A DNA stretch of 64,000 bases from Mustelus asterias. Its lineage: Eukaryota. Numbering within the stretch: position 1 is the stretch's first letter; each line of letters begins with the position of its first letter. Shown here piece by piece: positions 8,247-63,028 of this stretch. The DNA lies in the NCBI RefSeq assembly GCF_964213995.1, contig NC_135804.1, positions 59,644,001 to 59,708,000 on the forward strand. Reading direction: 5' to 3'. Position numbers and translations under genes: made by a program. A model generated the notes under the pieces. That model was not told the origin of the DNA. It made no database searches and saw nothing but the letters and a program-made list of their open reading frames with translations.

Positions 8247-11200
8247 CTAATTGTTTTTCGCCTCCATATAGCCAGTCTCTTTTACTCCATTTTGTTTCGC
8301 TCTCCGCAGTTGGGCATATTCAGTGCACCTTTCGTTAGCTTTGCCTTGTCTGAGCCAGTCAACGCTACACGTGAGTATATCAGGTCATTACCGACTTTCC
8401 TTTGTTGCGTCTGCAAGGTCAATGTTTGAAAATATTGTTTATTGGTTGCTTCGCAAGTCCGCTGTTCAAAAGATTCATCAGAAAGACACGCAGATCATCT
8501 TATAGACAGCATACGGGCAAAGTCAACAGAGACATATTTACTGCTACGTTCCTGGGTTTAGATGTTTCAGTAAGTGTAGGGAAGCTGGTAAAAGAGGTAG
8601 AGGAGTAGCATTGTTAATCAAGGATAGTTTAATGGCTGCGGAAAGGCACTTCGAGGGGGATCTACATACTGAGGTAATATGGGCTGAAGTTAGAAATAGG
8701 AAAGGAGCGGTCATGTTGTTAGGAGTTTACGATAGGCCCCCAAATAGTAATAGAGATGTGGAGGAAGAAATTGCTGAGCAGATTATGGATAGGTGTGGGG
8801 GTCACAGGGTAGTTGTCATGGGGGACTTTAACTTCCAAATATTGATTGGAACCTTTGTAGGTCGATTAGTTCAAATGGGGCAGTTTTTGTGCAGTGTGTA
8901 CAGGAGGGTTTCCTGACACAATATGGGAATAGGCCGAGAAGATGTGTGGCCACATTGGATTTGGTACTGGGAAATGAACCGGGCCAAGTGTTAGATTTGG
9001 TTGTGGGAGAGCACTTTGGAGATAGTGACCCCAATTTGGTGACTTTTGTTATTGCAATGGAGAGGGATAGGGCCGTACGGCAGGGCAAGGTTTATAATTG
9101 GGGGAGAGGTAATTATGATGCGATTAGGCAAGAATTAGGGGGCATAAGATGGGAACAGAAACTGTCAGGGAAAGGCACAAATGAAAAGTGGAACTTTTTT
9201 AAGGAACAAATACTGTGTGTCCTTGAGAGGTATGTCCCTGTCAGGCAGGGAGGAAATGGCTGAGTGAGGGAACCATGGTTCACAAAAGAGGTGGAATGTC
9301 TTGTAAGAAGGAAGAGGGAAGCTCATGTAGGGATGAGGAAACAAGGTTCAGATGGCTCGATTGAGGGTTACAAGTTAGCAAGGAATGAGCTGAAAAAGGG
9401 GCATAGGAGAGCTAGGAGAAGTCCTTGGCGGGTCGGATCAAGGAAAACCCCAAGGCTTTTTAGTCTTATGTGAGGCATAACAGAATGACCAGGATGAGGT
9501 TCGGGTCGGTCAAGGACGTAGTGGGAACTTGTGTATGGAGTCAGTAGAGGTAGGAGAGGTGATGAATGAATACTTTTCTGCAGTGTTGACGAAGGAGAGG
9601 GGCCATGTTTTTGAGGAAGAGAAGGGGTTACAGGCTAATAGGCTGGAGGAAGTAGATGTTCGGAGGGAGGATGTACGAGCAGTTTTGAATAAACTGAAGG
9701 TCGATAAGTCCCCTGGGCTTGATGAAATATATCCTAGGATTATTTGGGAGGCAAGGGATGAGATTGCAGAGCCTTTGGCTTTGATCTTTGGGTCCTCACT
9801 GTCCACGGGGATAGGGCTAGAGGACTGGAGAGTGGCGAATGTTGTTCCTCTGTTTAAGAAAGGGAATAGAAATGACCCTGGTAATTATAGGCCGGTTAGT
9901 CTTACTTCCGTGGTTGGTAAGTTGATGGAAAAGGTCCTTGCGGTTGGGATTTATGACCATTTAGAAAGATGCGGATTAATCCGGGATAGTCAGCATGGAT
10001 GCATGAAGGGCAAGTCGTGCCTCACAAATTTGATTGAATTTTTTGAGGAGGTAACTAAGTGTGTTGATGAAGGTAGGGCAGTTGATGTCATATACATGGA
10101 TTTTAGTAAGGCATTTGATTAAGTCCCCCATGGTCAGCTTATGATGAAAGTAACGAGGTGTGGGATAGAGGGAAGGTTGGCTGATTGGATAGGTAACTGG
10201 CTATCTGATCGAAGACAGAGGGTGGTGGTGGATGGAAAATTTTCAGACTGGAGGCAGGTTGCTAGCGGAGTGCCAGAGGGATCAGTGCTTGGTCCTCTGC
10301 TATTTGTGATTTTTATTAATGACTTAGAGGAGGGGGCTGAAGGGTGGATCAGTAAATTTGCTGATGACACCAAGATTGGTGGAGTAGTGGATGAGTTGGA
10401 GAGCTGTTGTAGACTGCAAAGAGACATAGATAAGATGCAAAGCTGGGCTGAAAATGGCAGATGGAGTTTAACCCTGATAAATGTGAGGTGATTCATTTTG
10501 GTAGGACAAATTTAAATGTGGATTCCAGGGTTAAAGGCAGGGTTCTGAAGACTGTGGAGGAACAGAGAGATCTTGGGGTCCATATCCACAGATCTCTGAA
10601 GGTTGCCACTCAAGTGGACAGAGCTGTGAAGAAGCTTTTATTAACAGGGGTTGGAGTTTAAGAGCCGTGGGGTTATGCTACACCTGTACAGGACCTTGGT
10701 GAGACCACATTTGGAATATTGTGTGCAGTTCTGGTCACCTCACTATAAGAAGGATGTGGAAGCGCTGGAAAGAGTGCAAAGGAGATTCACCAGGATGCTG
10801 CCTGGTTCGGAGGGTAGGTCTTATGAGGAAAGGTTGAGGGAGCTAGGGCTGTTCTCTCTGGAGCGGAGGAGGTTGAGGGGAGACTTAATAGAGTTTTATA
10901 AAATGATGAAGGGGATAGATAGAGTGAACGTTCAAAGACTATTTCCTCGGGTGGATGGAGCTATAACAAGGGGGTATAACTATAGGGTTCATGGTGGGAG
11001 ATATAGGAAGGATGTCCGAGGTAGATTCTTTACTCAGAGAGTGGTTGGGGTGTGGAATGGACTGCCTGCAGTGATAGTGGAGTCAGACACTTTAGGAGCA
11101 TTTAAGCGGTTACTGGATAGGCACATGGAGCACACCGGGATGATAGGGAGTGGGATAGTTTGATGAAGCTCGGCACAACATCGTGGGCCGCAGTGCCTGT

Positions 11201-14200
11201 TCTGTGCTGTACTTTCTATGTTCTATGCTCTTTGTAAACGGAAACGTATTTGGAAACATCTAGATAACTGCTTTCATCTTTATTATGTCTCTCTCTGTCC
11301 TAAAACATATTTTCAACAATTAGTGCTTCCTCTAAACCATACGACTCTTTCCAACTTTAACTCCGAACTGTTCTTTCTGTTGTGTTCCCTGGAAACTATC
11401 AGTCGTCGCAAGGTTATGTACGAAAATCAAGTGTTATCTTACCTTCATTCTTTCGCATTTGTTGCCACCTCGTAATGACGATCGCAAGCACGAGGAACGA
11501 CAACCCAACCAACGCGCGCACAGAAATCGAATAAAGTAACTTCTGGATATTTTCTGCAGGATTAATTGTAACATGAGGTAATAGTGGATATTAAATCAAC
11601 AAAAATAGGCTCCAAGATAGTTTATTATTTAAACTATGGTGATGGTTGCACTAATCCCGCAGTATTCAACGGAAGTAGAACGTTTGAATAAAAAGCTTGT
11701 TTGCAGCTAAGTATCTGCTGTATCTTCTTCCTCGAACATTTGGCGCATTATTGATTAATCTACGAAGACTAAAAGGCTGGAGTCACATGTAGGCCAGGCC
11801 AGGAAAGGGTGGCTGATTTCCTTTCCGAAAAGTCATCAGAGAGCCAGATCGGTTTTTGCGTCTGAATTATAGTTTCATGATACGTTACTAAAACAAATGT
11901 TTAGTTCAGTATTTATTAATTGGTTTTAAATGTCATGATGTGATTTGAACCGATATCCTTACAGCTTTAGCCTGCACCTCTTGAGTAATAGGCGAGTGAT
12001 ATTAAAATCACACCACCATCTTCCCTGAGTAGTATGCCATTGGAGATAATCGGACAACAACCAAATGGTTCACTCTTAACTGCCGCCTGAAAGGGTCTAA
12101 CAAGCTACTCCGTTAAAGGGCAATTAGGCATAAGCAATAAATGTTGGCCTAGCCAGCGACGTTCACATTAAATAAAAGAGTTTACTTTAAAAAATGCAGT
12201 GAACCGGACATACAGCGTTTTTTCCGGTTACAGTTTAAATGAGATTTATAAGACTGATTTCAGTTAAACCCGTCATGATCTGTAAGTAGGATGAGAAGCT
12301 GGTCATTTGGTTATTCCAAAACTCTGCACTGAACGTAACCGAACGTGTGACAATATCGGAAATCCCACGGCAATCAGTCCTTGCGCAAACAGCGTGCCTG
12401 CAGATCATAATAATAGTTTTCAAGCAAGACGAGTTCGCAACGGTCCAGTTGAAAGCATTAAAAAAAATAAACAGAAAGTGAAAAAGATTAATAACATTCA
12501 GGTTAAGAAATATTACACTAGAAAATATGAACGGATGTTTAATATTGTTCCGTTAGAAATAGAGGAATTTGAAAGCAAATCCGTTGGATTTTTGTTCTTG
12601 TATGGGATGTGAGCATTGCTGACGAAGCCAGCATTGGCCATTCCCAATTGCCCCTGAACAGAGTGGCCCGCTAAAGAGTTGCAGGGGGCAGTTAAGAGTC
12701 AACCACGTTTCCCTAGCTCTGAAGTCACATGTAAACCTAGCTGGGTAAGGAGAGCAGATTTCTTTCCCTGAAGGACATTCGTGAACCAGATTGGTTTTTA
12801 CCACAATCGATCATAGTTACATGGTCACCATTACTGAGACTAGCCTGATATTCCATAGCTATTAATTGAATTATGTTTCCAGAAGCTGCCCTTGTGGGAT
12901 GTGAATCCATGTCCTCAGATTGATTACTAGTCTGAGTGCATGGCTGGCTATATAAATCGATTTCAACACATTGCATTGAATTCAATGTAAAGGCACTTTA
13001 ATGTTTCTGTTGATATTTCCCGTGACATTTCCGTGATTATTAATATGCATAAAACTTACGAAAAATTTCACTATGAATTCTACTGTAGCTGGCTTCCCTT
13101 TTAGAACAATTTTTCCCCTACCTCGGTTCGGTTCAGGAATCGTGTACACCACAATAGCCGGAGTCTTGAGGGTGACATGAGATACCAGGCATGTATAATT
13201 GCCGTCTTTCGGTACAGGCTGAATCTCAACCAAAGTGCTGGAAACTTCATACAGTCCCTCTCTGTTCTGCACTTTACTGGTGTGTATTCCTGATGCAGTT
13301 TCGACGCCATTTTTATACCAAGTAAGGGTGAAATTTTCCGGATAAAATGCAGCCGTTTTACAAACGAGGGTCAGAGGCGCAGTCGAATTCCCTTCAGTTG
13401 TCCTGGAGACAAGATTCAGTGGGGTTGGGGCCGCTGCGGAGCAGAAAATGAACATAGTTCTGTGCATGGTTTGGAGAAATTAAATTCATTTTTGACGCTC
13501 GGTTAATATTCCTAATCACTGGCAATTCCTATTTCCTGTATTTGAATGTTACACACAAGATCAGTATAGATCTAATCTATATAAAGACTGGCATTCGATC
13601 AATTCCAATAATTTTTGAATTCCCTGTCGGACAGGGTGAAGTGATTTGCGAATCAACGTTCTGTTCAAATCGCCCAGAGAATTAAATCTTGATGAGACAG
13701 TCGTCTCGCTGAGTTGTTACGTGTTTTATGTGCAATGACATGACAGAGAGTGACGAATAATATTCATATTCTTGATGATGAAATGAGCGTTTTAATGCTC
13801 CTTTAACGCCGCAGCTTGACATTTGACTAAACAAATAACTTTCAGTTGAATCTGCCGAATTTTCACCAACACAGCCTCTCTGTTAAATTATAGGCAAAAT
13901 ACTGCGGATGCTGGAGTCTGAAACAGCCTCTGTGTTGTTTATTTATTGGAAAATTAGTGAATTTGGCAGCCATGTTGTGTCTGAAACTCCAATCTGTTGA
14001 GTGAATCGATTTGGTCAACAATTAGACAAACATTGAGTATTTGAATACGCGCCGTATCGTTCTTTGAAATTTACTTGAAGGAATACAGTTATTCATGGAC
14101 TATTAAAACTAAGCCAAAAGCTTTGTATATTTATCTTGGGAATGGAGCATTAGTATAAAAGATTTTCTGTCAGTTTTACTTCAGGAATTCATTCTGAGTG

Positions 14201-15006
14201 CCGCCAATGTAAATCTGGTGCATAAATTGACTTTATAGTTGTGATGTGTTTGATAAATATTACTAATATATTCAGTACTCTCCGAGTGGCATTGCAGGTA
14301 TAATTAGCATTTTAATGCAGAGGACACGAATGTACAACTCACTTATCGCGAAATATGTTCATAGGCATGATTTCACTGACAGAAAGTATGCACATACCCG
14401 ATTTTTGTGTTTGATATATTATGGCGATCGCGCTCACCTGTGTTCCAATCTTACCATGCACAATTAGATGCGATCCAGTTCCATTTCCTCGACCTACTCC
14501 CGGACGGAACACCGTACAGTGATAGATTCCAGAGTCTTGAAATGTCGCATTTACTAAGCGAAAGAAACCGCTACCTTTACTTCCCATACCAAACCTTTTT
14601 CTCTTGTCTGGGCTTGAATGCAGGAATTCATTCTCACCATGTTTCCACCATAACACCCGTACCCAGGCTTGGGGTTGAAAAATGTGGAATATGCAGTAGA
14701 AGGTGATGTTTCCCCCTCTGGATACAGTCGTTTCTTTTGGTGCTTGAGACACACTGAACGAAGAGTCGTCCGCAGCTGTCAGAAAGATAGACAAACACAG
14801 GTTAATTGCATTAGATACAACATAAAGGTAGAAAAGTGAAAGCATGATCTAGAGCGAGGAAATAAGGTTCTTTAAATTAATATGAAAACTACTTCCTCGG
14901 AAGTTATTAATTAAAGTAACATGGTAAGTGAAAATCTAGTGCCTGTGTGAATAATTCCTCGGAGGATCAAGTACAGAAGCACCATGATCGTTGTCATCAT
15001 TTGCAT
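8247..15006 (-). CDS. Gene A: multi-exon VJ-C1-TM Ig-superfamily receptor with ITIM (NKp30/SIRP-like non-rearranging antigen-receptor-like protein); possibly a young pseudogene
   Basis: Phase-1 exons 15006-14943 (leader), 14775-14455 (V), 13433-13122 (C1) and 11553-11443 (TM) join in frame without stops. A cytoplasmic exon at 8410-8282 carries LIYSRV. The linking cytoplasmic exon was not resolved. Confidence 0.85.
8282..8410 (-). CDS. Gene A terminal cytoplasmic exon with ITIM (LIYSRV); ITSM TEYAQL in shifted frame
   Basis: Acceptor gaccttgcag|. Phase 0 reads TQQRKVGNDLIYSRVALTGSDKAKLTKG...ME*. The shifted frame reads ANERCTEYAQLRRAKQNGVKETGYMEAKNN* to 8247. Confidence 0.7.
   Translation of the reverse strand, partial: TQQRKVGNDLIYSRVALTGSDKAKLTKGALNMPNCGERNKME
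8548..11230 (+). mobile_element. CR1-clade LINE, 5'-truncated ORF2 (APE+RT), frameshifted; intronic and antisense to gene A
   Basis: ORFs from 8611 to 11163 carry [28 protein letters not shown] and KFADDTK. Tail (TTCTATG)n. Same subfamily as 50900-54887. Confidence 0.95.
11443..11553 (-). CDS. Gene A transmembrane exon
   Basis: ttaatcctgcag| ... |gtaaga, 111 nt, phase 1-1. Reads ENIQKLLYSISVRALVGLSFLVLAIVITRWQQMRKNE. Not in the ORF track. Confidence 0.85.
11770..12020 (-). mobile_element. SlmI/MetaSINE-like SINE, decayed
   Basis: ggagtcacatgtaggccagg...gatttcctt is the reverse complement of the core of the 19420 copy. Confidence 0.6.
12590..12950 (-). mobile_element. SlmI/MetaSINE-like SINE
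   Basis: Reverse complement of the core (ctggttcacgaatgtccttcagggaaagaaatctgc) and of the tail. Confidence 0.75.
13122..13433 (-). CDS. Gene A C1-set Ig exon
   Basis: ttttctgctccgcag| ... |gtaggg, 312 nt. Reads [23 protein letters not shown]...YEVSSTL...YTCLVSH, matching the C1/MHC-Ig signature [FY]xCx[VA]xH. Confidence 0.95.
14455..14775 (-). CDS. Gene A V-set Ig exon with germline-joined J-like G strand
   Basis: tctttctgacag| ... |gtaaga, 321 nt. Reads VSQAP...GNITFYC...LWWK...DSGIYHC...GNGTGSHLIVH. Confidence 0.95.
14943..15006 (-). CDS. Gene A leader (signal peptide) exon with GC donor
   Basis: gccATG start; MQMMTTIMVLLYLILRGIIHT plus G, 64 nt, phase 1. Donor ACAG|GCACTA aligns with gene B ACAG|GTACTG. 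Confidence 0.75.
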
Positions 15007-47670: not shown

Positions 47671-48600
47671 GACAAGAGGTTTAAAGGAACAGCACAAGAT
47701 CAGAGATATCTGACGTTTGGAGTGGAAATGCGCTACAGCTCAACCCTATCCACCGATTAATAAAGGTTAGTCCAGCTGACATGTTGCGAGAAGCACGACT
47801 CATAATATCATGCTAGCTTTTTGATTCAGATCTACTAAATCGACACAAAGCAGGAACCTACCACAGGCTGAATGTCTGGTCCTTACTTCGTTAAAGTTTC
47901 ATATCTCTTTGCAATCATCTGAATGTGTCGTTTTCCTTCGCTTCTGCTCGCAGCTCCATGCGCAGCTATCACTAAACATTTTCATGAACATTCTTCGCTG
48001 CTGGACTGAAGCACGTGGATTTGGGCCAAATTTTCAGCTCTGGTTGAATGAAGCTAAAATTTGCCTCAGCAATTCTGGTCTAGAGAAAGACAGATGAGCG
48101 GGATGATTAATCCGAATTGCTATTCCTGAGATTTTTGCGAGAATTCTGGATGCGCGGAGGCTGGTGGAGATCTGGATGGCACTTCGCTCAGAGCGCCCAA
48201 GGCTATTTATTTGCTCACTTACACTGCCTATCCTCTTGCACGAAGACAAACCCCTTAGATGAGATGCTGCAGAATTGCCCACTCCTGCGGTCTGAATCGA
48301 CATTTTGAGGAATGATCAACGGTAGATGTTGACGAAGAAGATTATTAGAACATAGTGATACAGGAGCGGATGAAAAAGCATTGCTTTTCGCATGGAAACT
48401 TCGAACGCTTAGGAGGAGACCTCCGACTTCCCGGACTCTCACCATTACCGATCACAATACACAACTTTAGCCATGTGATATCTCGTGTCATGGTCACACA
48501 TTCCGTTTCTTTGTACATGCAATCAATTTCTTTACCAAATCATTCAAGGCATCGTTGTTATTTGCTGCGAGTGGCAAACGTTTATTCTTCATTTTACAGT

Positions 48601-48655
48601 ATGTCGCTGAGAACTGCAGTTCAGTGTATGGTTCTTCTGTGGATGGTCTGGACAG
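48601..48655 (+). CDS. Gene B leader exon
   Basis: [18 protein letters not shown] plus G|gtactg, 55 nt, phase 1. It is preceded by acceptor-like ttcattttacag, suggesting an upstream non-coding exon. Confidence 0.8.
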
Positions 48656-51600
48656 GTACTGTTGCTTGTTATATGTTGCCATTCAGAATACCTTAATTTC
48701 TATTTTAGAATATTCGCAAAGGTTCTACGTTAAAAATTAGATGCGTTACAGCTCCAATTCGATCGTTGGTGCTTCTTAATTGTTCTTGTACTTTACTTAT
48801 CTTAGTTTTTGTTTTCTTTGACGCATACAGTTCATCGCCGTTCTTTTTTTATAGGTGCGAAAGTAACATGGAGCAACGTGGATCAGTTCCCTAAACATTT
48901 GACGGTTGCCAGGGCTGACAATGTTTCCATGTTCTGCACATTTCCCATATTTGAAGACGCTCCTGAAGGTTCTTGGTGGAAACGGGGCGAGGAATCTGTT
49001 CTGGAACCAGACAGCAGAAAGAAAATTTATCTAAAGAAGGGCAGTAGTTCATTTGAAGTTCTGAATGCGAGTGTTGCAGACTCCGGAATGTATCACTGTT
49101 CAGTAAAACATCAACAGAATAAGATTGGGGATGGAAGTGGCTCCCAGCTCACCGTGTGTGGTAAGTATCACTGTACCGCGGAAAGGATGCTTTTCAGCTG
49201 TGTGTGATTTATGTAATTTGAACATATCACGAGATGAAAATCTGGATTCGTTTTTCGCTGCTGGTATTTCATTTCTGTTGACCTGCAGGTTCAACGGCCG
49301 TCAATTGCCTGTCTCCTGATTCGCACCACTGCCCAAGATCAACTTCACCCACTCCCTGTCTATCCTCGTGACGTTATAAAGTGTTTTTCATCCAACGAGT
49401 GCAGTTGGTTCAGTTATCACTGTTACTGAAAGTGATACTGACATAAAAAGATCGCATCAACTCTGAGATTGAGATTAATCAATTGGATGAGTTGCTCGAT
49501 TTTCTTGTCATCGAAACATCAGTGCCTAAGTGCAAACATTGAACAATTTTAACACGGCCTCTGTCGAATCTTTTGTAAACGATTAATTCATGTCAATAGG
49601 TCCCAGAATTTACCTTTGTTAAAAGCTCAATAGTGTTAATCTCTTCTCATTGAATGGGCGGCACGGTAGCACAGTGGTTAGCACTGCTGCTTCACAGCTC
49701 CAGGGACCTGGGTTCGATTCCCGGCTTGGGTCACTGTCGGTGTGGAGTTTGCACATTCTCCTCGTGTCTGCGTGGGTTTCCTCCGGGTGCTCCGGTTTCC
49801 TCCCACAGTCCAAAGATGTGCGGGTTAGGTTGATTGGCCATGCTTAAAAATTGCCCCTTAGAGTCCTGAGATGCGTAGGTTAGAGGGCTTAGCGGGTAAA
49901 TGTGTAGGGATATGGGAGTAGGGCCTGGGTGGGATTGTGGTCGGTGCAGACTCGATGGGCCGAATGGCCTCCTTCTGCACTGTAGGGTTTCTGTGATTTC
50001 TTTCTGGGTTTCTGTGATTGCTTTCAATATTTCACGCACCAGTTAACTTTTGAACTCATGCTTTATATTGCCAAGCTATTATTTTTTAAACTGAATTGTC
50101 CAAATTTTGATTTGAGAAAGATTCTTATACATGCGTATGAAGAGGATGGAGTTAAGTCTGACACATCGAGTTGAGGTCTATCCACCATAATGTAACTGAA
50201 TATCAAAGTAACCGAGCAAGATGGAAAGGCCTACTCCTGTTCCTATCTTGGTACTCAATGCTGCACGCTTGTGTCAGTTGATAACATTGTTTGAGATGCC
50301 AAACTTTCACTGAATATTCCTGCAATGCATATCAGAGGGCATGCGGTGATCTTAACCTGAATGTTGCTTTTCAACCGAAGTCCTGGGATATACAGGACAG
50401 TGAAGATATCAATTGCCTGCTTTGAGACCCTTTGGCGTCAGCCAGTTGGATTCCTCAAAACCAATAATTCCAGACAGACTATCACCGAACGTTCCTGTGT
50501 ATTCCTGCTGTTTAAATCAGGATTTCTATTTAAATTCCCCAAACCTGACACGGAAGTTACAAGACAGCAGAAAACAATATCCTCATTCGCTTGCACGGAT
50601 AATCTATAGCATTGCCTATTACAGCTAAAAAAGAATCTATGGTTTTAAAAAATGCAGGCATTCTGAATCACTTGGAGTAAAGGTTAACATTATTAACTCT
50701 TTAAACTGTCACCGCTCTGTGTTCCTGCTTTTTAAACTGTCACCGCTCTGTGTTCCTGCTTTTTAAACTGTCACCGCTCTGTGTTCCTGCTGTTTAATCT
50801 GTCGCCGCTCTGTGTTCCTGCTTTTTAAACTGTCACCGCTCTGTGTTCCCACTCTTTAAACTGTCACCGCTCTGTGTTCCTGCTTTTTAAACTTCTTTCC
50901 CAGTGCACTCTGAGGAAGGGGAAAAAGGGTTCAGTGTTCCATTGGAGCAATTCTTTTTCTTTGTAGCAGTAAGTTATATGGAGGGGATGGAAGTGAAGGC
51001 AGTGCAATGTGCCTCCTGCAGAATGTTTGAGGTGAGGGACACCGTCAGTGTGTTTGCTGATTACACCTGTGGGAGATGCACCCACCTGCAGCTCCTCCAA
51101 GACCGCGTTAGGGAGCTGGAGCTGGAGTTGGATGAGCTTAGGGTCATCAGGGAGGCAGAGAGGGCCATAGACACAAGCTTCAGGGATATGGTTGCTCCAG
51201 GGAATGAAAATAGATGGGTGACAGTGAGAGGGGCTGGGAGGAAGCAGTCGGTGCGGGGTCCCCTGTGGTCGTTCCCCTTAGCAACAAGTATTCCACTTTG
51301 GATACAGGTGAGGGGGGCGACCTACCAGTGGTAAGCCGCAGTGACCAGATCGCCAGCGATGAGTCCGTCCCTGTGGCTCAGAAGGGAAAGGGGGAGAGCG
51401 CTAGAGCTATAGTTATTGGGGACTCGTTTGTTAGAGGGATAGATAGGAGGTTCTGTGGCAACAAGAGAGACTCACGGATGGTATGTTGCCTCCCGGATGC
51501 CAGGGTCCGTGACATCTCCGTCTGTGTCTTCAGGATTCTAAAGGGGGAGGGGGAACAGTCACTAGTCGTGGTGCACGTCGGCACGAAAGACATCGGTAAG

Positions 51601-54600
51601 AGAGGGGACGGGGATTTAAAACAGCTATTCAGGGAGCTAGGGTGGAAGCTGAGAGCCAGGACAAAACAGGTTGTCATCTCTGGTATGTTGCCGGTGCCAC
51701 GAGATAGCGAGTTGAGGAACAGGGACAGAGTGCAGTTAAACACATGGATGTAGGGATGGTGTAGGAGGGAGGGTTTCAGCTATGTGGATAATTGGAACAC
51801 TTTCTGGGGAAGGTGGGACCTGTACCAACAGGACGGGTGCACCTGAACCAGAGGGGCACCAATATCCTGGGAGGGAAATTTGCTCCAGCTCTTCGGGGGG
51901 GTTTAAACTAATTTGTCAGAGGGATGGGAAAAGGAGTTGTAGTCCGGAGGTCAGTGAGTGTAGTGAGGTACTGGGAAGGGTATCATGGTCAAAGGTGGGT
52001 ACCAGCAGACAAGAAGGTGGGTTGAAGTGTGTCTACTTCAATGCAAGGAGCATCCGATATAAGGTAGGTGAACTTGGGGCATGGATTGGCACTTGGGACT
52101 ACGATGTTGTGGCCATTACGGAGACATGGGTAGAACAAGGACAGGAATGGTTGTTGGAAGTTCCGGGGTATAGATGTTTCAGTAAGTGTAGGGTAGCTGG
52201 TAAAAGAGGTGGGGGAGTGGCACTGTTAATCAAGGAGAGTGTAACGGCTGCAGAAAGGCATTTCGAAGGGGATCTGCCTACAGAGGTAATATGGGCTGAG
52301 GTTAGGAATAGGAAAGGAGCGATCACGTTGTTAGGAGTTTACTATAGGCCCCCAAATAGTAATAGAGATGTGGAGCAAGAAATTGCGAAGCAGATTATGG
52401 ATAGGTGTGGAGGTCACAGGGTAGTTGTCATGGGGGACTGTAACTTTCCAAATATTGATTGGAGCCTTTATAGGTCGAATAGTTCGGATGGGGAAGTTTT
52501 TGTGCAGTGTGTGCAGGAGGGATTCCTGACACAATATGTGGATAAGCCGACAAGAGGTGGGGCCACATTGGATTTGGTAATGGGAAATGAACCGGGCCAA
52601 GTGTTGGATTTGGTTGTGGGAGAGGACTTTGGAGATAGTGACCACAATTCGGTGTCTTTTGTTATTGCAATGGAGAGGGAGAGGGCCATGCGGCAGGGCA
52701 TAGTTTACAATTGGGGGAGAGGTAATTATGATGCAATCAGGCGGGAATTAGGAAGCATAGGATGGGAACAAAAATTGTCAGGGAAAGGCACGAATGAAAA
52801 GTGGAACTTTTTCAAGGAACAAATACTGCGTGACCTTGATAGGTATGTCCCTGCCAGGCAGAGAGGAAATAGCCGAGTGAGGGAACCATGGTTCACAAAA
52901 GAGGTGGAATGTCTTGTCAAGAGGAAGAAGGAAGCGTATGTAACGTTGAGAAAACAAGGTTCAGTTGGCTCGATGGAGGGTTACAAGTGAGCAAAAAATG
53001 AGCTGAAAAAGGGGCTTAGGAGACCTAGGAGGGGGCATGAGAAGTCCTTGGCGGGTCGGCTCAAGAAAAACCCCAAGGCTTTATACTCTTATGTGAGGAA
53101 TAAAAGAATGACCAGGGTGAGGTTGCGGCCGGTCAAGGATGGCAGTGGGAATTTGTGCATGGAGTCAGAAGAGATAGGACAGGTGATGAATGAATACTTT
53201 TCTTCGGTGTTCACCAAGGAGAGGGGCCATGTTTTTGAGGAAGAGAGGGTGTCACAGGCTGATAGGCTGGAGGAAGTAGATGTTCGGAGGGAAGATGTAC
53301 TAGCAATTTTGAATAAACTGAAAGTTGATAAGTCCCCTAGGCCTGATGAAATATATCCTAGGAGTCTTTGGGAGGCAAGGGATGAGATAGCAGAGCCTTT
53401 GGCATTGATCTTTGCGTCCTCACTGTCCACGGGGATGGTGCCAGAGGACTGGAGAGTGGCGAATGTGGTTCCTCTGTTTAAGAAAGGGAATAGAAAAGAC
53501 CCTGGTAATTATAGGCCGGTTAGTCTTACTTCCGTTATCGGTAAGTTGATGGAAAAGGTCCTCAGGGATAGGATTTATGACTATTTAGAAAGATGCAGCT
53601 TAATCCGGGATAGTCAGCACGGATTTGTGAAGGGCAAGTCTTGCCTCACAAATTTGATAGAATTTTTTGAGGAGGTAACTAAGTATGTAGATGAAGGTAG
53701 TGCAGTTGATGTCATATACATGGATTTTAGTAAGGCGTTTGATAAAGCCCCCCATGGTCGTCTTATGAAGAAAGTAAGGATGTGTGGGATAGAGGGAAGT
53801 TTGGCCGATTGGATAGGTAACTGGCTATCTAACAGAAGACAGAGGGGGGTGGTGGATGGAAAATTGTCGGACTGGAAACCGGTAACCAGCGGAGTGCCAC
53901 AGGGATCAGTGCTTGGTCCTCTGCTATTTGTCATTCTTATAAATGACTTGGAGGAGGGGGCTGGAGGGTGGATCAGTAAATTTGCTGATGACACCAAGAT
54001 TGGTGGAGTAGTGGATGAGGTGGAGGGCTGTTGTAGGCTGCAAAGAGATGTAGATAGGATGCAGAGCTGGGCTGAAAAATGGCAAATGGAGTTTAACACT
54101 GACAAATGCGGGTGATTCATTTTGGTAGGACAAATGTAAATGTGGATTACAGGGTCAAAGGAAGGGTTCTGAAGAATGTGGAGGAACAGAGAGATCTTGG
54201 GGTTCATATCCATAGATCTCTGAAGGTTGCCACTCAAGTGGATAGAGCCGTGAAGAAGGCCTACAGTGTGTTGGCGTTCATTAACAGGGGGTTTGAGTTT
54301 AAGAGCCGTGGGATTATGCTGCAACTGTACAGGACCTTGGTGAGACCAAATTTGGAATATTGTGTGCAGTTCTGGTCACCTCACTACAAGAAGGATGTGG
54401 AGACACTGAAAAGAGTGCAAAGGAGATTTACCAGGATGCTGCCTGGTTTGGAGGGTAGGTCTTATGAGGAAAGGTTGAGGGAACTTGGGCTTTTCTCTTT
54501 GGAGCGGAGGAGGTTGAGAGGAGACTTGATAGAGGTTTGTAAGATGATGAGGGGGATAGATAGAGTGAACGTTCAAAGACTATTTCCTCGGGTGAATGGA

Positions 54601-57572
54601 GTGGTAACTAGGGGGCATAACTATAGGGTTCATGGTGGGAGATATAGGAAGGATGTCCGAGGTAGGTTTTTTACTCAGAGAGTGGTTGGGGAGAGGAATG
54701 GACTTCCTGCAGGGATAGTGGAGTCAGAAACTTTAGGAACATTTAAGAAGCTATTGGATAGGCACATGGAGAACTTCGGGATGATCGGGAGGAAATGGCT
54801 TGATTTGAGTTTCAGACAAAGCTCGGCACAACATCGTGGGCCGAAGGGCCTGTTCTGTGCTGTACTGTTCTATGTTCTATGTTCTATTATCTTGAAGTTA
54901 AAAATTACCCGTTTAACAATAGGATAAATAACGAAACATTTTCGTAATAAAGTCAGATAAGTTGTGACAGTCGATCTAGCTGACACAATTAGTATGAACT
55001 TTATATTCATTTACGGGTTTTATTCATTTACTTGCTGGGCCAGCATTCACTGCCCATCCCCACTCCAGAGGGAATTTGAGATCAATCACAGGCCAGGTAA
55101 GAATGGCAGATTTCCTTCCCCAAAGGAAAACATGGAACCAGATGGGTCGTTACGCCAATCGACATTGGTTTCATGGTATTTCCAGATTTTTATTCGATTC
55201 AAATTTCACTATCCAACTGTGGGCTTTGAAACCAGGTCCCCAGATCTGGCTCTGGGTCTCTCCAGTGACAACAGCACTACACCACTGCTGTTCCGTAAAC
55301 AACTGTAATGCAGATTTTAATCCATACATTTATAATCAACATTTATAATGCCTTTATTGACATTAGAGACATTTCGGCGATTCACGGTCTTCATAGTCAG
55401 AGGATAATGTGCGTGGTAATAAATGAAATATTCGAACATCAACGAATTTTAAAGTAGGCACGCAAAACAACATACGGCAAGTACATTATGCGAAAAACGA
55501 AAGAGGACTCCACTGCTCCGTTCTGACTGCGTGGCCCAGGCATCTGTATACACATAGAGATGAATTGCATTCGGGCCATCGCTGCTAACCCCAATAGTTT
55601 GCCAGGACCTGATGTTTCCTTTCAATGTCGCGTACCTCCATGTATGCGAACAATACCGCGAGATTCAGTCCCGCTGTTTACGATACACCCGCATACTTTG
55701 CAGTGCGCCGTTAAATTATTTCTAAAATGAATACAAACACGATGTTTAAGAAATCACAGAGCGAATAACTATTTCCACTGTTAAGAGTGTAACATAATTG
55801 TTGCGGCATACAAACGCCAATGTGTTCTTTACATTAAAAATTACCTTCTATTTCCCTGTTAAAGTTCCCCCAACCCCCCTGAAACTCGTTCAGGTTGAAG
55901 GGATTTCTGCAACTTCTCTGAGATTCGAGTGTAAAACGGCTGCCTTTTACCCGGAGGATTTCAAAATCTCCTGGCGCAGAGATGGTGTGGGAATTCTGGC
56001 CGGAATAGAAACTGTGAGACACAAGACAGTGGATGGTCTCCGAGAGGTCTCCAGCTCTTTGGAAGAGGCACAGCCTGCTTCGAGCCGAATAGTTTATACG
56101 TGCCTGGCATCTCATATCTCCCTTAAGGTGCCCGCCAGTGTCAGCTATATCGACATTCAAGGTAAGATTGGGCACATTTGCAGCAGCAAGTGCATTTGCA
56201 GCGTCCAACCTATAGTTATTTATTAAACATTTAGCAGGGCAGCTGTTCAAACACAAAGTTGCAGGGTTCTTTATTCTCAATGTCACATCAATGTAAATGA
56301 ATTAAAATACCATGGTTTGTAACTGCAGGAGAGGGAATATTTCCCTGAAAAGATCTGAAACGGGAGGGCGATGTGCGAAGTACTCAAAACTGAAAGCTCA
56401 TTTGTTATCAAATTCTTGCCAAATGAAATGAACGTACACATGAAATGGATCAGTTTTAGCAGTATCACTTTAATTGGACAATTCCTGTGTGGAACTTTAG
56501 CCAAGGATATCGTTCAAGGACATTTCCTCCATGATCCAGATCCTTTTGACCATTATTGAACTGTTTCTCTTTGATCCAAACACTAAACTTCGGGGGAAAA
56601 AAATGTTCCGCCTGGAGTTACATCATTCATTGAATTCCTTATTTCATTATTTTAACTCTCAAACTGCGAAGGCATAAAAATTGCTTCCAACGCTCCTCTG
56701 GTTGCAATTTCGGTTGTGGACCCTTTACTCCAATAAACAATACCCTATTACAGTTATTAGCACTGTGGGTGTAAACTTTAAAAATGAGGAAACTACAGTG
56801 CAAGTACAGAGCATTTGGCGCTTGATCCGTGTTCTGGTGCGAGTGCATCTGCCATGAGGGAAACGACCCAAGCTACCAAACTGAATATCAGAATCCGAAA
56901 GCATAACTTTCGGCCTGATGAAGTTAACCGTGCGGGAAGATCATAACCTGATCATCAGCGAGCTAAATTTTGATCGCTGAGGGCGGTGTTGTGTGACCGA
57001 GTGGTACTGTCCCACATTATTATTATAGGGTCCAGAGGAACATTTCTGTTTTTTCCTGCACAGCCAAAAATAATTTTTAATTCATTTGTTTGGGATTTCT
57101 TTACCTATTTTGCTGTTACATCTGGTAGAAAGAACAAGCACACATATTATATCCTAAAATGGACATCAGTGTCCTATTTGAAGAGAAGCCAATTGCCGAC
57201 AAAATGGCGCTGGCACCAAACAACAGGCTGTCTTGGAAGATGGAGTGGATTGTGTTAAAATGTTCACATGGTGCTCAATTTGCAGAGCGTCTTTTGAGGG
57301 TATTTTCCATTCGCTCGACTTTGGAAATTTAATATCGGTTACAAAGTTTAGAGTAGCAATTGTATGGAGCTCTTTCATGTCCAGAAGCCAGCACTATTTG
57401 GTTTCATTCAATAATTCATATGTACAGACAATTTATGTGTATATTTTAATCCTGCACTGCAGATAACAGTTTCCGGAACATGATGATTTTACGGCTTGTT
57501 CTGGGTTGTTTGATAATTCTTGGATTGCTGGGCATAATTGTGGATGGACCATGTAGCATCTTTCAAATGAAG
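48601..57572 (+). CDS. Gene B: multi-exon VJ-C1-TM Ig-superfamily receptor with TM arginine (putative activating paralog of gene A)
   Basis: Exons 48601-48655, 48855-49160, 55865-56161 and 57463-57572 all have GT-AG boundaries and join in frame without stops. Confidence 0.88.
48855..49160 (+). CDS. Gene B V-set Ig exon with germline-joined J-like strand
   Basis: ttttttatag| ... |gtaagt, 306 nt. Reads VDQFP...NVSMFC...SWWK...DSGMYHC...[10 protein letters not shown]. Confidence 0.95.
49656..50019 (+). mobile_element. HE1-type V-SINE, full length
   Basis: Same structure as the 29407 copy. Confidence 0.93.
50697..50893. repeat. 31-bp minisatellite, about 6 copies (ttaaactgtcaccgctctgtgttcctgcttt)
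   Basis: Period 31 (50701, 50732, 50763...). It abuts the 5' end of a CR1. Confidence 0.95.
50900..54887 (+). mobile_element. Near full-length CR1 (ORF1+ORF2, several stops/frameshifts) in gene B V-C1 intron
   Basis: ORF1 remnants (CASC..CGRC, VIGDS, HVGT), APE 51782..52990, RT 53048..54115, C-terminus 54106..54927, and (TTCTATG)n tail. Confidence 0.95.
55020..55290 (-). mobile_element. SlmI/MetaSINE-like SINE, decayed
   Basis: aggccaggtaagaatggcagatttccttccccaaagga...gaaccagatggg. Confidence 0.65.
55865..56161 (+). CDS. Gene B C1-set Ig exon
   Basis: tttccctgttaaag| ... |gtaaga, 297 nt. Reads VPPTPLKL...[21 protein letters not shown]...EVSSSL...YTCLASH. Confidence 0.95.
57463..57572 (+). 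CDS. Gene B transmembrane exon
   Basis: cctgcactgcag| ... |gtaagg. Reads [37 protein letters not shown]. Confidence 0.85.
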
Positions 57573-59129
57573 GTAAGGGGACGCCGTTTTAATTCAGCAA
57601 ACCACGTTCAAAGTATATACACAGTTAACACTGGTGGGCTGGAAATGGGAAATGTGCTTTTGTCCGTCGTTTCTCCGGTAATTTAAGGCTCACGGGTAGT
57701 GATATTAAATTTTGCTATGAAGTAACTCACAACATAGAAGGCCACCACTTTTACCACGACAATGCTCATATTTAGTGCTGCTGAAAAATGACAGAGATGA
57801 AACGTTAAATCTGTTTCCCTTCCAAATTGTGCCGCCTGATCTGCCGAGCTTTTGCCACGTTTTCTGCTTTTATTTTATATTATATTAGTTTTCGTATTAA
57901 ATTCAGTTTCGGGCATGATATGCCAAGTAATAAACACCGAATGTCAGTTTTGAACGCTGGTTTAGTTTTATCTCCTTTCGTGAAAATGATTTTGGTTTCA
58001 ACTTCTCACTTGAGATATTTGAGCACAAACTTCCGGCTAGCATTGCAGCGCAGCACTGCTGGCGGTTTGGTCTTTTTTCAACGACGAAAAACGAGATCCT
58101 CTGCTTTATATGTTGGCCGTAAAAGCCCAATTGGTCATTTCGTAACTGAGCATCGTGGAGCTCACTCGTGTCCTGATCAGAAATTAGTTTTCAATCTACT
58201 TCGCTGAAACCGATTCATTTTTCATTCATTTCAGTAATCTATGTGGTTAGGAACGTCCCGTGTTGTTTTTTTAAGAACACGTTGCACTTTCAGCTGCTGT
58301 GAAAGACTGCATGCCAATATTGATCCGTTCTTCTGCTTTGCACGATTTTTATGTATGGTTGGAAAATTTATAATACAAACGCCACTTTCTGAGCACTGTT
58401 TTCCATTTTGCGTTAAACTCTGCTAAAATTATGCTGTTAGGAATCTGGCAGAGGTACTTTATTTCGGAAATATGCCTCTCATGATGAAATTTTCAGCACG
58501 TTTACATGTATAATTTTATCTATTTTGCTTCCCTTCTCAAGGCACTGTGTCTAGCTGCGATGCCCACAATCTTCTCGCCCCACCAAATCGTTTCGTATTA
58601 CTGTTAAGGCGTGAGCGTCACGTTGTTGAACTCAGAGTCGTCATTTTTAGATTAGCAATTTAAATCGAGGCCCTGGGATAAGCATCTGGAGTAGAATGTA
58701 ATGCTAATTTCCCCCAGCTATCCCTGAAAACCCAGACAGCTTCATATTTTCAATTGTTGCAGAACAGTGCATATAGTATACGACATAGAGGACACCTAAC
58801 CTGCCATCTTACGATGAGTACGTCTCGGTGCGACAGCGAAGGGTTGCATACGTATTCATTCAGTGCTACATGGAATTTTTTTTCACATGTGCAAGAGATC
58901 ACGGGATACCAAGCGACAGCTTGAAAATTTCAATTCAAATATATAACAAGAGCCTTTTTTTAACTTAAATGTCATTCTACATTGAATGAGTGGAAATCCG
59001 TCAATTCCGGATAGGTAATGAGGAGTTAACGTTTACCTTTTATATAAAAGGGATGTAACACATGATTACTCACACGCACAATAATCAAAGTTTTCGCCAA
59101 ATGAAACTGAAAACGCAAATTCAACTTTA

Positions 59130-60790
59130 GCAAGCTGATATTTTGTAATCCCATTTTCCAGCTTTTGGTCCATAGACCTCTATGCTATGGCATTTCAAAT
59201 GATCGTCTAAATACTTCTTAAATGTTGTGCGGGTTCCCGCCTCTACCACCCTTTCAGTCAGTGAGTTCCAGATGATCATTACCCTCTGGGTGAAATGATT
59301 TCCTCTCACATCTCCTGTAAACCTCCTACCCCTTAACTTCAGTCTATGCCCCCTGATTATTGACCCCTCTACTAAGAGGAAATGTTCCTTCCGAGCCACC
59401 ATACTTATGCCCCTCATAATTTAATTCATCTCAATCAGGTCCCCCACCCCCACAGCCTTCAGTGATCCACGGAAACCAACCCCAGCCTATTCAGTCTCTC
59501 TTGTTAACTTAAATGCACCAGGCCCAGCTGAATCTCCTCTGCACTTTCACTCGTGCAATCAATTCTTCCCTATCGTTTGGCGACCAGAACTGCATACACT
59601 ACTCCAGCTATTGCCTAACTAGAGTTCATACAGCTCCATCATAAACACCCTGCTCTAATATTAAATGCCTCAGCTGATGAAGACAAATATCACATATGTT
59701 TTCTTAACCGCTTATCTACCTGTCCTGCTATCATCAGAGATCTATGGAGATGCACACCAAGTCCCTCTGATTCTTTGTACTCCCGAGGATCTGATCATTG
59801 GTTGTACATTCCCTTACCTCTTAGTGCTCTAAAATATATTACTTCACACTTTTCGAGGTTGAATTTCATTTGCCACCGTTCTGCCCATCGAACCAACCCG
59901 TCCATATTCTAAGCCTTTGCTCCTCGCAGTTTGCCACACCACCAATTTTTATGTCCTCTGCGAACCAACTTATCATACCACCTATATCCACGTCCAGAAT
60001 ATTATTGTATACTACGAAAAACAAATGGCCCAGTACCAATCCTGTGGAAGACGACTGGACACAGGCTTTCAGTCACAAAAACAATCTACCAACATCACGC
60101 TCTCCCTCCTGCCGCTAAACCAATTTGGCATCCAGTTTGTTAAATTGTCCTGGATCCCATGGCAATCCCATCTTTATCAGCCTCCCATATGGGACCTTGT
60201 CAAAAGCTTTACTGACGTCTATGTAGAATACACCAACTGCACTACCCTCACCGACACACCGAATCACCTCCTCGAAAACGTCAGTCACATTTGTAAGGGA
60301 TGATCTCCCTTTGACAACACTGTGCTGATTATCCTTGATTAATTCTTGTGTCCCCAAGTGCAGATTAATTATGTCCCTCAGAACTTTTTCCAATAGTTTC
60401 CTATCACAGAAGTTAGTCTCACTGGCTTGTAATTTCCTGTTCTTTTCCTACTTCCCTTTTTGAAAAACGGTACCACATCAGCTATCATCCAGTCCTCTCG
60501 TGCCTCTGCTGTTGGACTTTAACCTGGTGTTGTGAGACTTCTTACTGGGTTACCCCAGTCCAACGCCGTCATCTCCACATTATGGCTCTGCTTTGGCCGG
60601 GGAAGATTAGAAAATTATCGCCAGAACCGCTGCAACCTATTCCCTTGCCTACCACAGCAGCGTAGGATGCAGCTCATCTGGGCCTGGGAATTTATCAACA
60701 TAAGCCCCGTTAAAACCTCCTCTCTCTTAATGTTTATCAACATCAGGCCCGTTAAAACCTCCTCTCTCTTAATGTTAAGTTCTAACGTTG
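59130..60790 (-). mobile_element. Decayed CR1 3' half with Penelope pLTR fragment (60509-60586, +) and 42-bp tandem duplication (60691-60775)
   Basis: RGHRLKLRGRRF..VRGNHFTQRV and YIDVSKAFDKVPYGRL. The pLTR fragment matches 3752-3790. Confidence 0.8.
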
Positions 60791-61424
60791 GAAATGGTGG
60801 CATATTCATTAAAATTAAATTTGCCTCGGTCTTGGTTGTATTTAGTGTAAGGATATTTTAATAATTACAGTCGAATAACAACGAAGGGATGTAATTGGAG
60901 ACAGTTCCATTAAGTTAGTAATAGTTTGATGTGATACAGATGAGCGTGCATCTATGAGTCCAGAAATATAGATGCAGTGCTGAATTTACTTGCGGATCTT
61001 GGGAAATTAATGCTGACGCAATTAAGTGGGAACTGTTTGTGAATATAAAATTGAAACTGTAATTAAAAGATAGTGCATCGTTTGGAAAACAAATTTCAAT
61101 TTTATTTTTGATCGGTTAAGATCGATTGATAATCTCCGCCTCTGTTGATATCGACACGAGAGCAATACCTTAAAATTGGTTAAGAAGAACACGTGTTCCG
61201 GTACAGGCGGAAGAAGAAACACACGAAGCAAGGAACAAGGTGAAGGAGCCACAATCGAGACGAATCAGGGGCGTATCCAGCATTCGCTCACAACCATTTT
61301 CAGCTGTATTTAGACACACTTTTTTCCTACAGCATTAGAATATAAAAATACAGTTGTTAGTTGGCGCCCGTGCATAAAATGAGTCAGTGCATTCCTTGTA
61401 AGTGCTGTAACAAGAATGGAGAGT

Positions 61425-62713
61425 TAGAACATAGAACAGAGAACATTACAGCGCAGAACAGGCCCTTCGGCCCACGATGTTGCACCGACCAGTTAAAAAA
61501 AAAAACTGTGACCCTCCAACCTAAACCAATTTCTTTTCGTCCATGAACCTATCTACGGATCTCTTAAACGCCCCCAAACTAGGCGCATTTACTACTGATG
61601 CTGGCAGGGCATTCCAATCCCTCACCACCCTCTGGGTAAAGAACCTACCCCTGACATCGGTTCTATAACTACCCCCCCTCAATTTAAAGCCATGCCCCCT
61701 CGTGCTGGATTTCTCCATCAGAGGAAAAAGGCTATCACTATCCACCCTATCTAAACCTCTAATCATCTTATATGTTTCAATAAGATCCCCTCTTAGCCGC
61801 CGCCGTTCCAGCGAAAACAATCCCAAATCCCTCAGCCTCTCCTCATAGGATCTCCCCTCCATACCAGGCAACATCCTGGTAAACCTCCTCTGCACCCTCT
61901 CCAAAGCCTCCACATCCTTCCTGTAATGTGGGGACCAGAACTGCACACAGTACTCCAAGTGCGGCCTCACCAGAGTTGTGTACAGTTGCAACATAACGCT
62001 ACGACTCCTAAATTCAATCCCCCTACCAATAAACGCCAAGACACCATATGCCTTCTTAACAACCTTATCTACTTGATTCCCAACTTTCAGGGATCTATGC
62101 ACACATACACCTAGATCCCTCTGCTCCTCCACACTATTCAAAGTCCTCCCGTTAGCCCTATACTCAACACATCTGTTATTCCTACCAAAGTGAATTACCT
62201 CACACTTCTCCGCATTAAACTCCATCCGCCACCTCTCGGCCCAACTTTGCAACCTGTCTAAGTCTTCCTGCAAACTACGACACCCTTCCTCACTGTCTAC
62301 CACACCACCGACTTTGGTGTCATCAGCAAATTTGCTAATCCACCCAACTATACCCTCATCCAGATCATTAATAAATATTACAAACAGCAGTGGCCCCAAA
62401 ACAGATCCCTGAGGTACACCACTTGTAACCGCACTCCATGATGAATATTTACTATCAACCACCACCCTCTGTTTCCTATCCGCTAGCCAATTCCTGATCC
62501 AATTTCCTAGATCACCCCCAATCCCATACATCTGCATTTTCTGCAGAAGCCTACCATGGTGAACCTTATCAAACGCCTTACTAAAATCCATATATACCAC
62601 GTCCACTGCCTTGCCCCCATCCACCTCCTTGGTCACTTTCTCAAAAAACTCAATAAGGTTAGTAAGGCACGACCTACCTGCCACAAAACCATGCTGACTA
62701 TCACCTATCAATT
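61425..62713 (-). mobile_element. Young 5'-truncated CR1, sibling of the 24571 element
   Basis: ORF 61521..62726 is identical in amino-acid sequence to the C-terminal part of 26889..29123 from LIGDSQHG to EKKLV. Confidence 0.97.
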
Positions 62714-62974: not shown

Positions 62975-63028
62975 CTGTCTCTGTAAATATTCCATGAACG
63001 AAATAAAAAAAACGAAGAAACGATACAT
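62975..63028 (-). pseudogene. Candidate third paralog leader exon, 1 nt short in a T8 run
   Basis: ATGTATCGTTTCTTCG-T8-ATTTCGTTCATGGAATATTTACAGAGACAG|gtatac. One extra T gives MYRFFVFFYFVHGIFTET plus G (55 nt, phase 1, as in gene B). Confidence 0.4.

What the first reader, a model, noticed from the sequence alone, without database searches (positions are those of the whole stretch)
14455..14775. V exons encode a germline-joined J-like strand with no RSS
Both V exons run from the YHC cysteine through a 7-8 residue CDR3-like loop (TVFRPGVG versus SVKHQQNKI) into GNGTGSHLIV or [10 protein letters not shown], then a phase-1 donor. I saw no heptamer/nonamer at either exon. Established: NKp30, CD8, SIRP and some NITRs have such VJ-type domains, the proposed substrate of the RAG transposon insertion. 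The V domains differ more than the C1 cores, which would fit ligand-driven divergence (inference).
Basis: partly seen in the sequence, partly recalled or inferred. Interest (0 to 1): 0.7.

Follow-up and report, generated by a model that had tools for sequence, protein, structure and literature searches.

The report
Non-rearranging paired immune receptors of sharks
The two exons belong to two genes of a 58-member shark family of antibody-shaped surface proteins with no rearrangement signals, whose near-identical outer parts sit on either brake-type tails or switch-on-type membrane anchors, so they likely form a paired on/off innate receptor system rather than a relic of the antibody ancestor.

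Summary
Both exons are real, intact VJ-type exons with phase-1 donors and no RSS (same-genome Ig/TCR controls light up). Each belongs to a leader-V-C1-TM gene. They are 2 of 58 related V exons on one chromosome; named relatives come only from sharks, rays and chimaeras. Members have either ITIM/ITSM-type tails or a transmembrane Arg with a short tail (p=0.0002), and opposite types share near-identical V exons: likely paired receptors kept alike by gene conversion. Trees place the family outside Ig/TCR/UrIg, nearer NKp30/CD28-type domains; Asn/Thr/Asp replaces the J Phe/Trp. The loop is 10 residues in both genes, not 7-8, and fixed across the family. Family-wide, V is no more divergent than C1 (44% vs 44%). 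B is activating-type. A has a V exon identical to an inhibitory paralogue, but a CR1 LINE replaced two tail exons and it gained a TM Arg: a possible recent switch, or decay. I found no description in 8 paper searches, but key papers were unavailable. This scan reported the family before on other DNA (33 notes, at least 16 genomes). No ligand or signalling was tested.

The parts
14943..15006 (-). Gene A leader exon (predicted; phase 1, non-consensus GC donor shared with paralogue L024)
   Evidence: use of this donor not shown
14455..14775 (-). Gene A VJ-type exon (the finding); 0 of 321 nt differ from inhibitory-type paralogue L024
13122..13433 (-). Gene A C1-set exon
   Evidence: Pfam C1-set 47 bits; V-to-C1 splice bridged by a contig of run X1
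11443..11553 (-). Gene A transmembrane exon; Cys-to-Arg change relative to L024 and L018
8546..11230 (+). CR1-type LINE copy standing where paralogue L024 has 1.4 kb with two cytoplasmic exons (one carries the first ITIM-like motif)
8248..8410 (-). Gene A last cytoplasmic exon (ITIM- and ITSM-like motifs); out of frame if joined to the TM exon, and with a 1-nt deletion between the two motifs
48601..48655 (+). Gene B leader exon (predicted, phase 1, GT donor)
48855..49160 (+). Gene B VJ-type exon; third Cys at its end
55865..56161 (+). Gene B C1-set exon
57463..57572 (+). Gene B transmembrane exon of activating type (Arg near the outer end); a 4-nt tandem duplication shifts the frame past the stop found in L025 and L027

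Best explanation
Genes A and B are non-rearranging leader-VJ-C1-TM genes of a 58-exon cartilaginous-fish family that likely acts as paired inhibitory and activating leukocyte receptors. Shown: gene anatomy, absence of RSS, family size and clustering, two tail classes, near-identical V exons on opposite tail classes. Inferred from other receptor families: long-tailed members would recruit SH2 phosphatases through ITIM/ITSM-like motifs; short-tailed members would signal through their TM Arg and an FcR-gamma/CD3-zeta-type adaptor; gene conversion would keep the binding domains matched so both partners see the same ligand. B is an activating-type member with an altered short tail. A descends from an inhibitory-type gene and is predicted to have lost its tyrosine motifs through a LINE-linked deletion; it is either a nascent activating/decoy form or a decaying copy.
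For: 58 V exons on C4 (1 at 54.66 Mb, 28 at 58.79-59.96 Mb, 29 at 67.67-70.02 Mb); 56 of 58 have a C1 exon in the DNA fetched. All 43 and all 61 named hits of two searches are sharks, rays or chimaera. Among 84 distinct TM segments from 123 family proteins, 2 of 16 with TM Arg carry a tyrosine motif against 44 of 68 without (Fisher p=0.00018; median tail 33 vs 95 aa; a cruder first rule gave p=0.028). Of the 28 genes in the window's cluster, 9 have Arg-free TM plus tail exons with motifs, 12 have TM Arg and no such exons in the DNA fetched, and subfamilies A, B, C and D each hold both types. L018 (inhibitory) vs L008 (activating): synonymous divergence 2/68 in V, 22/74 in C1 (p=1e-5); L009 vs L013: 97-99% identity through V and C1, then 59-77%. 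Two zeta/FcR-gamma-family TM exons exist in the genome. TM Arg pairing with CD3-zeta/FcR-gamma: PMC6514059; homogenised ligand-binding exons in paired receptors: PMC3210942; activating forms arising from inhibitory ones: PMC2213150 abstract.
Against: No ligand, cell type, adaptor binding or phosphorylation was tested. 24 of 68 Arg-free proteins have no tyrosine motif in their annotation (some truncated models, some a Cys-rich tail class). Proteins and genes are related, so the Fisher test overstates independence. 13 of 58 V exons lack the G[TSI]G motif and several are broken. One low-depth X1 contig (4.2) carries a 6-nt in-frame deletion inside the CDR3-like loop; DNA of that individual was not available, so somatic change is not excluded. 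For A: its Arg lies one position off the register of the ordinary activating members, the flanking intron is as diverged as the TM exon (6.4% vs 7.2%), and the only A-type transcript seen carries the Cys-type TM.
Confidence: 0.8

Rival explanations
1. The genes are close relics of the VJ-C1 gene that the RAG transposon invaded and form TCR-like A/B heterodimers.
For: One VJ exon plus one C1 exon plus TM is the layout of a TCR chain; A and B are divergently oriented 34 kb apart; an LTB4R cluster lies at C4:47.1 Mb, and human LTB4R is near TCR-alpha/delta (recalled). A clade with UrIg was not rejected (p-AU 0.073).
Against: V tree separates the family from Ig/TCR/UrIg at 95/95; clades with Ig light chains (p-AU 0.007) and TCR (0.04) rejected. 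0 of 45 exons keep Phe/Trp at the J anchor; 34 have Asn, forming a predicted glycosylation site. A and B are neighbours in a tandem unit repeated three times that also holds C- and D-type genes. PMC12227049 favours UrIg/UrIg2 as the candidate.
Confidence: 0.07
2. The family is the cartilaginous-fish orthologue group of SIRP (CD47 receptors).
For: NCBI auto-names many members SIRP-alpha- or SIRP-beta-like; human SIRP-alpha is the 4th PDB hit of P0005; colinear V-C1 match to a lizard SIRP-like protein, hhalign probability 98.5; clade with it not rejected (p-AU 0.098).
Against: The family V profile scores the lizard SIRP-like V domains at 15-22 bits, below turtle and viper multi-V proteins (up to 54) and NCR3-like L057 (57); the V tree puts them on the Ig/TCR side. 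One C1 rather than two, Arg rather than Lys (SIRP features recalled). SEP-domain genes, the type of SIRP's human neighbour NSFL1C (recalled), lie on C7 and C20, not C4.
Confidence: 0.15
3. They are germline-joined Ig light-chain or TCR genes.
For: Sharks have germline-joined Ig genes (PMC12227049; 6 found here); some members are auto-named Ig lambda-like.
Against: All 6 germline-joined Ig exons keep F/W-G-x-G, the family 0 of 45; family plus germline-joined IgL rejected (p-AU 0.0014); TM and tyrosine-motif tail exons follow C1.
Confidence: 0.02
4. Narrower rival for gene A only: it is a decaying duplicate, and the TM Arg is incidental.
For: Two tail exons lost, 1-nt deletion in the last exon, GC leader donor, Arg off-register, no transcript of this version seen, and runs X2/X3 show only the undeleted last exon.
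Against: Leader, V, C1 and TM frames and their acceptors are intact; joining TM to the last exon would give a short motif-free tail, the typical activating layout.
Confidence: 0.55

Closest known systems
NKp30 / NCR3 (and CD28-family V domains)
   Same: Single-exon VJ-type V; same Cys-to-GxG spacing as NCR3-like L057; NKp30 ties for best structural match (Z 14.2, rmsd 2.1, 101 aligned, 25% identity); TM Arg in activating members.
   Different: Extra C1 domain; about 58 copies; ITIM-type partners; on C4, not on the chromosome with class II-like and NCR3-like exons (C8).
SIRP-alpha / SIRP-beta
   Same: VJ-type V followed by C1; paired tyrosine-motif and charged-TM members.
   Different: One C1; Arg instead of Lys (recalled); shorter CDR3-like loop; V tree and SEP-gene location do not support orthology.
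UrIg / UrIg2 (PMC12227049)
   Same: Shark non-rearranging VJ followed by C1; UrIg2 is the top PDB hit of P0005, summed over its C1 repeats.
   Different: UrIg has three or more C1 domains, is an Fc-like dimer and is MHC/AgRC-linked; separate in both trees.
PRARP / VJC1 genes
   Same: Named as non-rearranging VJ genes (PMC10751288, PMC11599192); V-C1 layout with ITIM/ITSM recalled.
   Different: Described as MHC-associated; no sequence in hand, so orthology untested.
Paired receptor families (KIR, Ly49, NKG2, PIR)
   Same: Clustered genes, opposite signalling ends, homogenised ligand-binding exons, birth and death of activating forms (PMC3210942, PMC2213150).
   Different: Built from VJ plus C1 domains; named relatives found only in cartilaginous fish.

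Membership tests
Rearranging Ig/TCR | RSS-flanked, split V and J segments | tested here: not met
   no RSS at A or B; controls positive
Rearranging or germline-joined Ig/TCR | F/W-G-x-G J anchor | tested here: not met
   0 of 45 family exons with the motif (N 34, T 7, D 4); 6 of 6 germline-joined Ig exons keep it
Germline-joined IgL / TCR | V domain nests in an Ig or TCR clade | tested here: not met
   (p-AU 0.0014, 0.007, 0.04; quick trees, few outgroups)
SIRP | VJ-type V followed by C1-set domain | tested here: met
SIRP | V-C1-C1 ectodomain (recalled) | tested here: not met
   A and B have one C1 before the TM exon
SIRP | One clade with tetrapod SIRP V domains | tested here: inconclusive
   apart in the best tree, not rejected by AU test (0.098); one lizard SIRP-like protein only
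SIRP | Linkage to NSFL1C (recalled) | tested here: not met
   SEP-domain exons on C7 and C20 only; which one is NSFL1C was not determined
SIRP | Binds CD47 | not testable with these tools
   none
NKp30/NCR3 | VJ-type V of NKp30-like fold | tested here: met
   tied with VNAR and NCAM domains, so not specific
NKp30/NCR3 | Single Ig domain, MHC-linked (PMC6514059) | tested here: not met
   C1 present; family on C4, class II-like C1 and NCR3-like exons on C8 (labels recalled from motifs)
UrIg/UrIg2 | VJ plus three or more C1, MHC/AgRC-linked | tested here: not met
PRARP/VJC1 | Orthology by tree and synteny | not tested
   no sequence retrieved; PMC6761025 not held
Paired receptors (kind) | Similar ectodomains on ITIM tails or charged TM with short tail | tested here: met
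Paired receptors (kind) | Ligand-binding exons homogenised between opposite types | tested here: met
Paired receptors (kind) | Opposite signalling shown in cells | not testable with these tools
   none

The most novel reading that the evidence does not exclude
This is an undescribed main NK/myeloid receptor system of cartilaginous fish, older than the shark-chimaera split, built from antigen-receptor-type VJ and C1 domains and reading a polymorphic self ligand such as MHC class I; and gene A catches an activating receptor being born, a LINE having removed the brake exons of an inhibitory gene while its V exon stayed identical.
Probability: 0.2. Interest if true: 0.8.

Novelty: new variant of a known kind. 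Interest (0 to 1): 0.5.

Why it matters
Sharks have MHC, Ig and TCR, but a large variable inhibitory/activating receptor family like KIR, Ly49 or SIRP did not turn up in my paper searches. A family of dozens of genes shared by sharks, rays and chimaeras gives concrete candidates for how the oldest jawed vertebrates tell healthy self from threat, and makes that testable with ectodomain binding screens. It also shows that a VJ-C1-TM layout can serve innate paired signalling, so that layout alone does not mark an antigen-receptor ancestor. Gene A offers a rare close comparison (identical V, different tail) for how activating partners arise.

Tried and rejected
Complex prediction of two copies of the P0001 V-C1 region gave no answer (score 0.01, alignment not used); it is no evidence either way, and an A/B heterodimer was not modelled. 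The run search listed no holder on record as RNA; X1 is RNA by guess only. The ESM Atlas could not be read. PDB sequence searches with the V exon or V profile gave generic Ig proteins. SIRP was not among the 50 listed VIA-align rows, which does not exclude it. The C1 tree supports one family clade (99/97) but resolves no sister. Linkage to RAG1 rejected (C9). Cadherin search gave no marker near the cluster; no flanking gene was identified within 7 Mb of it, so synteny stays coarse. Positive selection on V not shown. A pure assembly duplication of the B region was considered: 10 kb are 100% identical to L019, but identity falls gradually to 94-97% on both sides with indels, which fits recent unequal crossing-over better; not excluded. 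Papers not held: PMC6761025 and PMC3709836. The one supplement file of PMC3964593 held as text has no SIRP, NCR3 or ITIM hit; supplements of the other papers were not opened and may list these genes.

Full report
Observation. Exon A (14775-14455, minus) and exon B (48855-49160, plus) have AG acceptors and phase-1 GT donors, are open, and score as V-set domains. The F-strand cysteine, the loop and the J-like strand are in one exon. An RSS scan (heptamer starting CAC, spacers 11-13 and 22-24) found nothing in either exon, within 1 kb of A or in A's V-C intron; the one 4-mismatch hit near B lies in a repeat. Window counts match a Markov background (18 vs 15.2, 1 vs 1.9, 0 vs 0.5 at up to 4, 3, 2 mismatches). 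Around all 58 family exons (plus or minus 500 nt) there were 4 hits at up to 3 mismatches against 2.2 expected and 28 against 17.9 at up to 4, a mild excess that counts duplicated loci more than once. The scan found proper signals at Ig light, IgH and TCR segments of the same genome. Two details are wrong: the loop is 10 residues in both genes and is fixed (41 of 45 exons with the motif, 58 examined), and V is not more divergent than C1 across 903 pairs of 43 loci.

Gene anatomy. Each exon belongs to a leader-V-C1-TM gene; A and B point away from each other, 34 kb apart. The A exon is identical to part of P0001, an annotated Mustelus asterias protein auto-named SIRP-alpha-like; P0001's C1, TM and tail match the paralogue L024, not the window. 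A contig of run X1 (RNA by guess, one study, coded organism A) joins the 14455 donor to the C1 acceptor, so an A-type gene is spliced as predicted; its TM alleles are the L024 type. The same contig (depth 4.2) lacks 6 nt inside the CDR3-like loop, at a short direct repeat; runs X2, X4 and X5 do not show this. An allele, a related species or an error is likelier than junctional diversity, but this result counts against certainty. A second X1 contig (depth 64) matches a D-type member.

Family. Searches of the own genome give 58 related V exons on C4 in two clusters and one outlier; 56 have a C1 exon in the DNA fetched. The window is part of a roughly 160-175 kb unit (D, A, B, C types) repeated three times. 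All named hits of two word-index searches are cartilaginous fish, including Callorhinchus. From the profile search I looked up 20 of the 150 listed: 9 single V-C1 hits were all cartilaginous fish; the other 11 were multi-domain proteins of a lizard, a turtle, a viper, a sea turtle, bony fish, coelacanth, sharks, a skate and a mussel. The best outside V domains were turtle and viper multi-V proteins (up to 54 bits).

Signalling ends. Of 84 distinct TM segments from 123 family proteins (isoforms with identical TM collapsed; proteins without a TM dropped), 16 have an Arg near the outer end; 2 of these have a tyrosine motif, against 44 of 68 without Arg (p=0.00018). In the window's cluster of 28 genes, 9 have Arg-free TM with motif-bearing tail exons, 12 have TM Arg with no such exons in the DNA fetched, 3 are inhibitory-type but partial or broken, 2 have no TM found, 1 has a Cys-rich tail, and 1 is gene A. 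Subfamilies A to D each hold both types. Opposite types share their ectodomain exons far more than their surroundings: L018 vs L008 differ at 2 of 68 synonymous sites in V and 22 of 74 in C1 (p=1e-5); L009 vs L013 are 97-99% identical through V and C1 and fall to 59-77% after it, probably near the floor of a forced alignment. PMC3210942 (passages) describes this pattern for paired receptors; PMC6514059 (passages) describes TM Arg pairing with CD3-zeta/FcR-gamma; two exons of that adaptor family are in the genome. The signalling itself is inferred.

The two window genes. B has the activating-type TM; a 4-nt duplication moves the frame past the stop seen in L025 and L027, and no motif exon was found downstream. 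A differs from inhibitory L024 at 0 of 321 nt in V, 5 of 313 in C1 and 8 of 111 in TM, including Cys to Arg. A CR1-type LINE (about 8546-11230) stands where L024 has 1.4 kb with two tail exons. Joining TM to the remaining last exon shifts the frame to a short motif-free tail; that exon also has a 1-nt deletion, absent from X1, X2 and X3 contigs. PMC2213150 (abstract) reports that activating KIR and Ly49 arise repeatedly from inhibitory genes. Against a true switch: the Arg is one position off the family's activating register (read), the neighbouring intron is equally diverged, and no transcript of this version was seen. I put decay at 55%.

Relationships. The model of A's V domain is confident (pLDDT 90). 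VIA-align ties VNAR, NCAM2 and NKp30 at Z 14.2; Foldseek lists VNARs first and NKp30 at rank 10 with TM-score 0.79, the highest of the first 40 ranks shown. In a 50-row V tree the 25 family rows form one side (95/87), and a 95/95 branch separates Ig, TCR, UrIg, CD8-like and SIRP-like rows from the family, NCR3-like, CD28H-like, B7H6-like and turtle rows. AU tests on a thinned 37-row quick tree reject union with germline-joined IgL (0.0014), IgL/kappa (0.007) and TCR (0.04), but not with UrIg (0.073), SIRP-like (0.098) or NCR3-like (0.21); the IgL tests also force the light chains into one group. Outgroup labels are mine, from recalled motifs. The J anchor is Asn, Thr or Asp, never Phe/Trp, unlike 6 of 6 germline-joined Ig exons. 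C4 carries a ZFHX3-like gene at 22.9 Mb, an LTB4R cluster at 47.1 Mb and human-X-type markers at 82-126 Mb (names recalled except LTB4R); class II-like and NCR3-like exons are on C8, a UrIg-like gene on C16, RAG1 on C9, SEP genes on C7 and C20.

Literature. Eight searches listed no paper on this family. Seen: PMC12227049 (abstract, first part of text, passages, first part of Discussion), PMC10751288 (passages), PMC11599192 (passages), PMC3964593 (term search of text and one supplement file), PMC2213150 (abstract), PMC3210942 and PMC6514059 (passages). Ohta 2019 and Flajnik 2012 were not held; Fu 2019 and Dornburg and Yoder 2022 were seen only as reference entries. An earlier mention there is possible. 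This scan's own notes report the family on a neighbouring gene and in at least 16 genomes; I had written down my reading before opening them, and they are not independent support.

Verdict. It is not filed as SIRP, NCR3, UrIg or Ig/TCR, because a defining feature of each failed. Confidence in the paired-receptor reading 0.8; interest 0.5.

Noticed in passing
window 48143-64000 vs L019/L093 (G000:C4:59533300-59549157): About 16 kb are 99.98-100% identical to the next repeat unit, with identity falling to 94-97% on both sides; the left part of the window is closer to the third unit. Looks like a recent unequal crossover; assembly duplication not excluded.
   Followed up: partly
window 14499-14504, run X1: One low-depth spliced contig lacks 6 nt in frame inside the CDR3-like loop, at a short direct repeat.
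   Followed up: partly
P0129, P0133, P0174, P0091, P0180-P0186: Turtle and viper multi-V proteins with GxG J-like strands come in tyrosine-motif-tailed and TM-Arg short-tailed forms; they are the nearest outside V domains by profile score and may be a reptile paired family of related origin.
   Followed up: partly
L007 (G000:C4:59.05 Mb); P0082, P0097, P0156: A third tail class: Cys-rich juxtamembrane segment and basic C-terminus, no tyrosine motif, found in sharks and rays.
   Followed up: no
window 49157-49159; L009, L013, L017, L021, L023: B- and D-type V exons end in an extra Cys at the V-C1 linker, a possible interchain disulfide.
   Followed up: no
window 14943 (leader donor), also L024: Gene A's predicted leader exon ends in a weak GC donor; the annotated paralogue protein P0001 uses a different upstream exon instead.
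   Followed up: partly
G000:C4:47.07-47.20 Mb (L082, L083): Cluster of at least four GPCR hits, one confirmed LTB4R-like, 7-12 Mb from the family; the human gene lies near TCR-alpha/delta (recalled).
   Followed up: partly
L067 (G000:C16:64.42-64.43 Mb): Germline-joined V plus C1 resembling UrIg/UrIg2.
   Followed up: partly
L068 (G000:C17:70.92 Mb): Unassigned C1-set exon that falls on the Ig/UrIg side of the C1 tree, without support.
   Followed up: no
L009:6170-7030: The first ITIM-type tail exon is tandemly duplicated in this D-type gene.
   Followed up: no
window 50697-50893: Tandem repeat of 31-nt period whose copies each give a weak RSS-like match (4 mismatches); treated as chance.
   Followed up: partly
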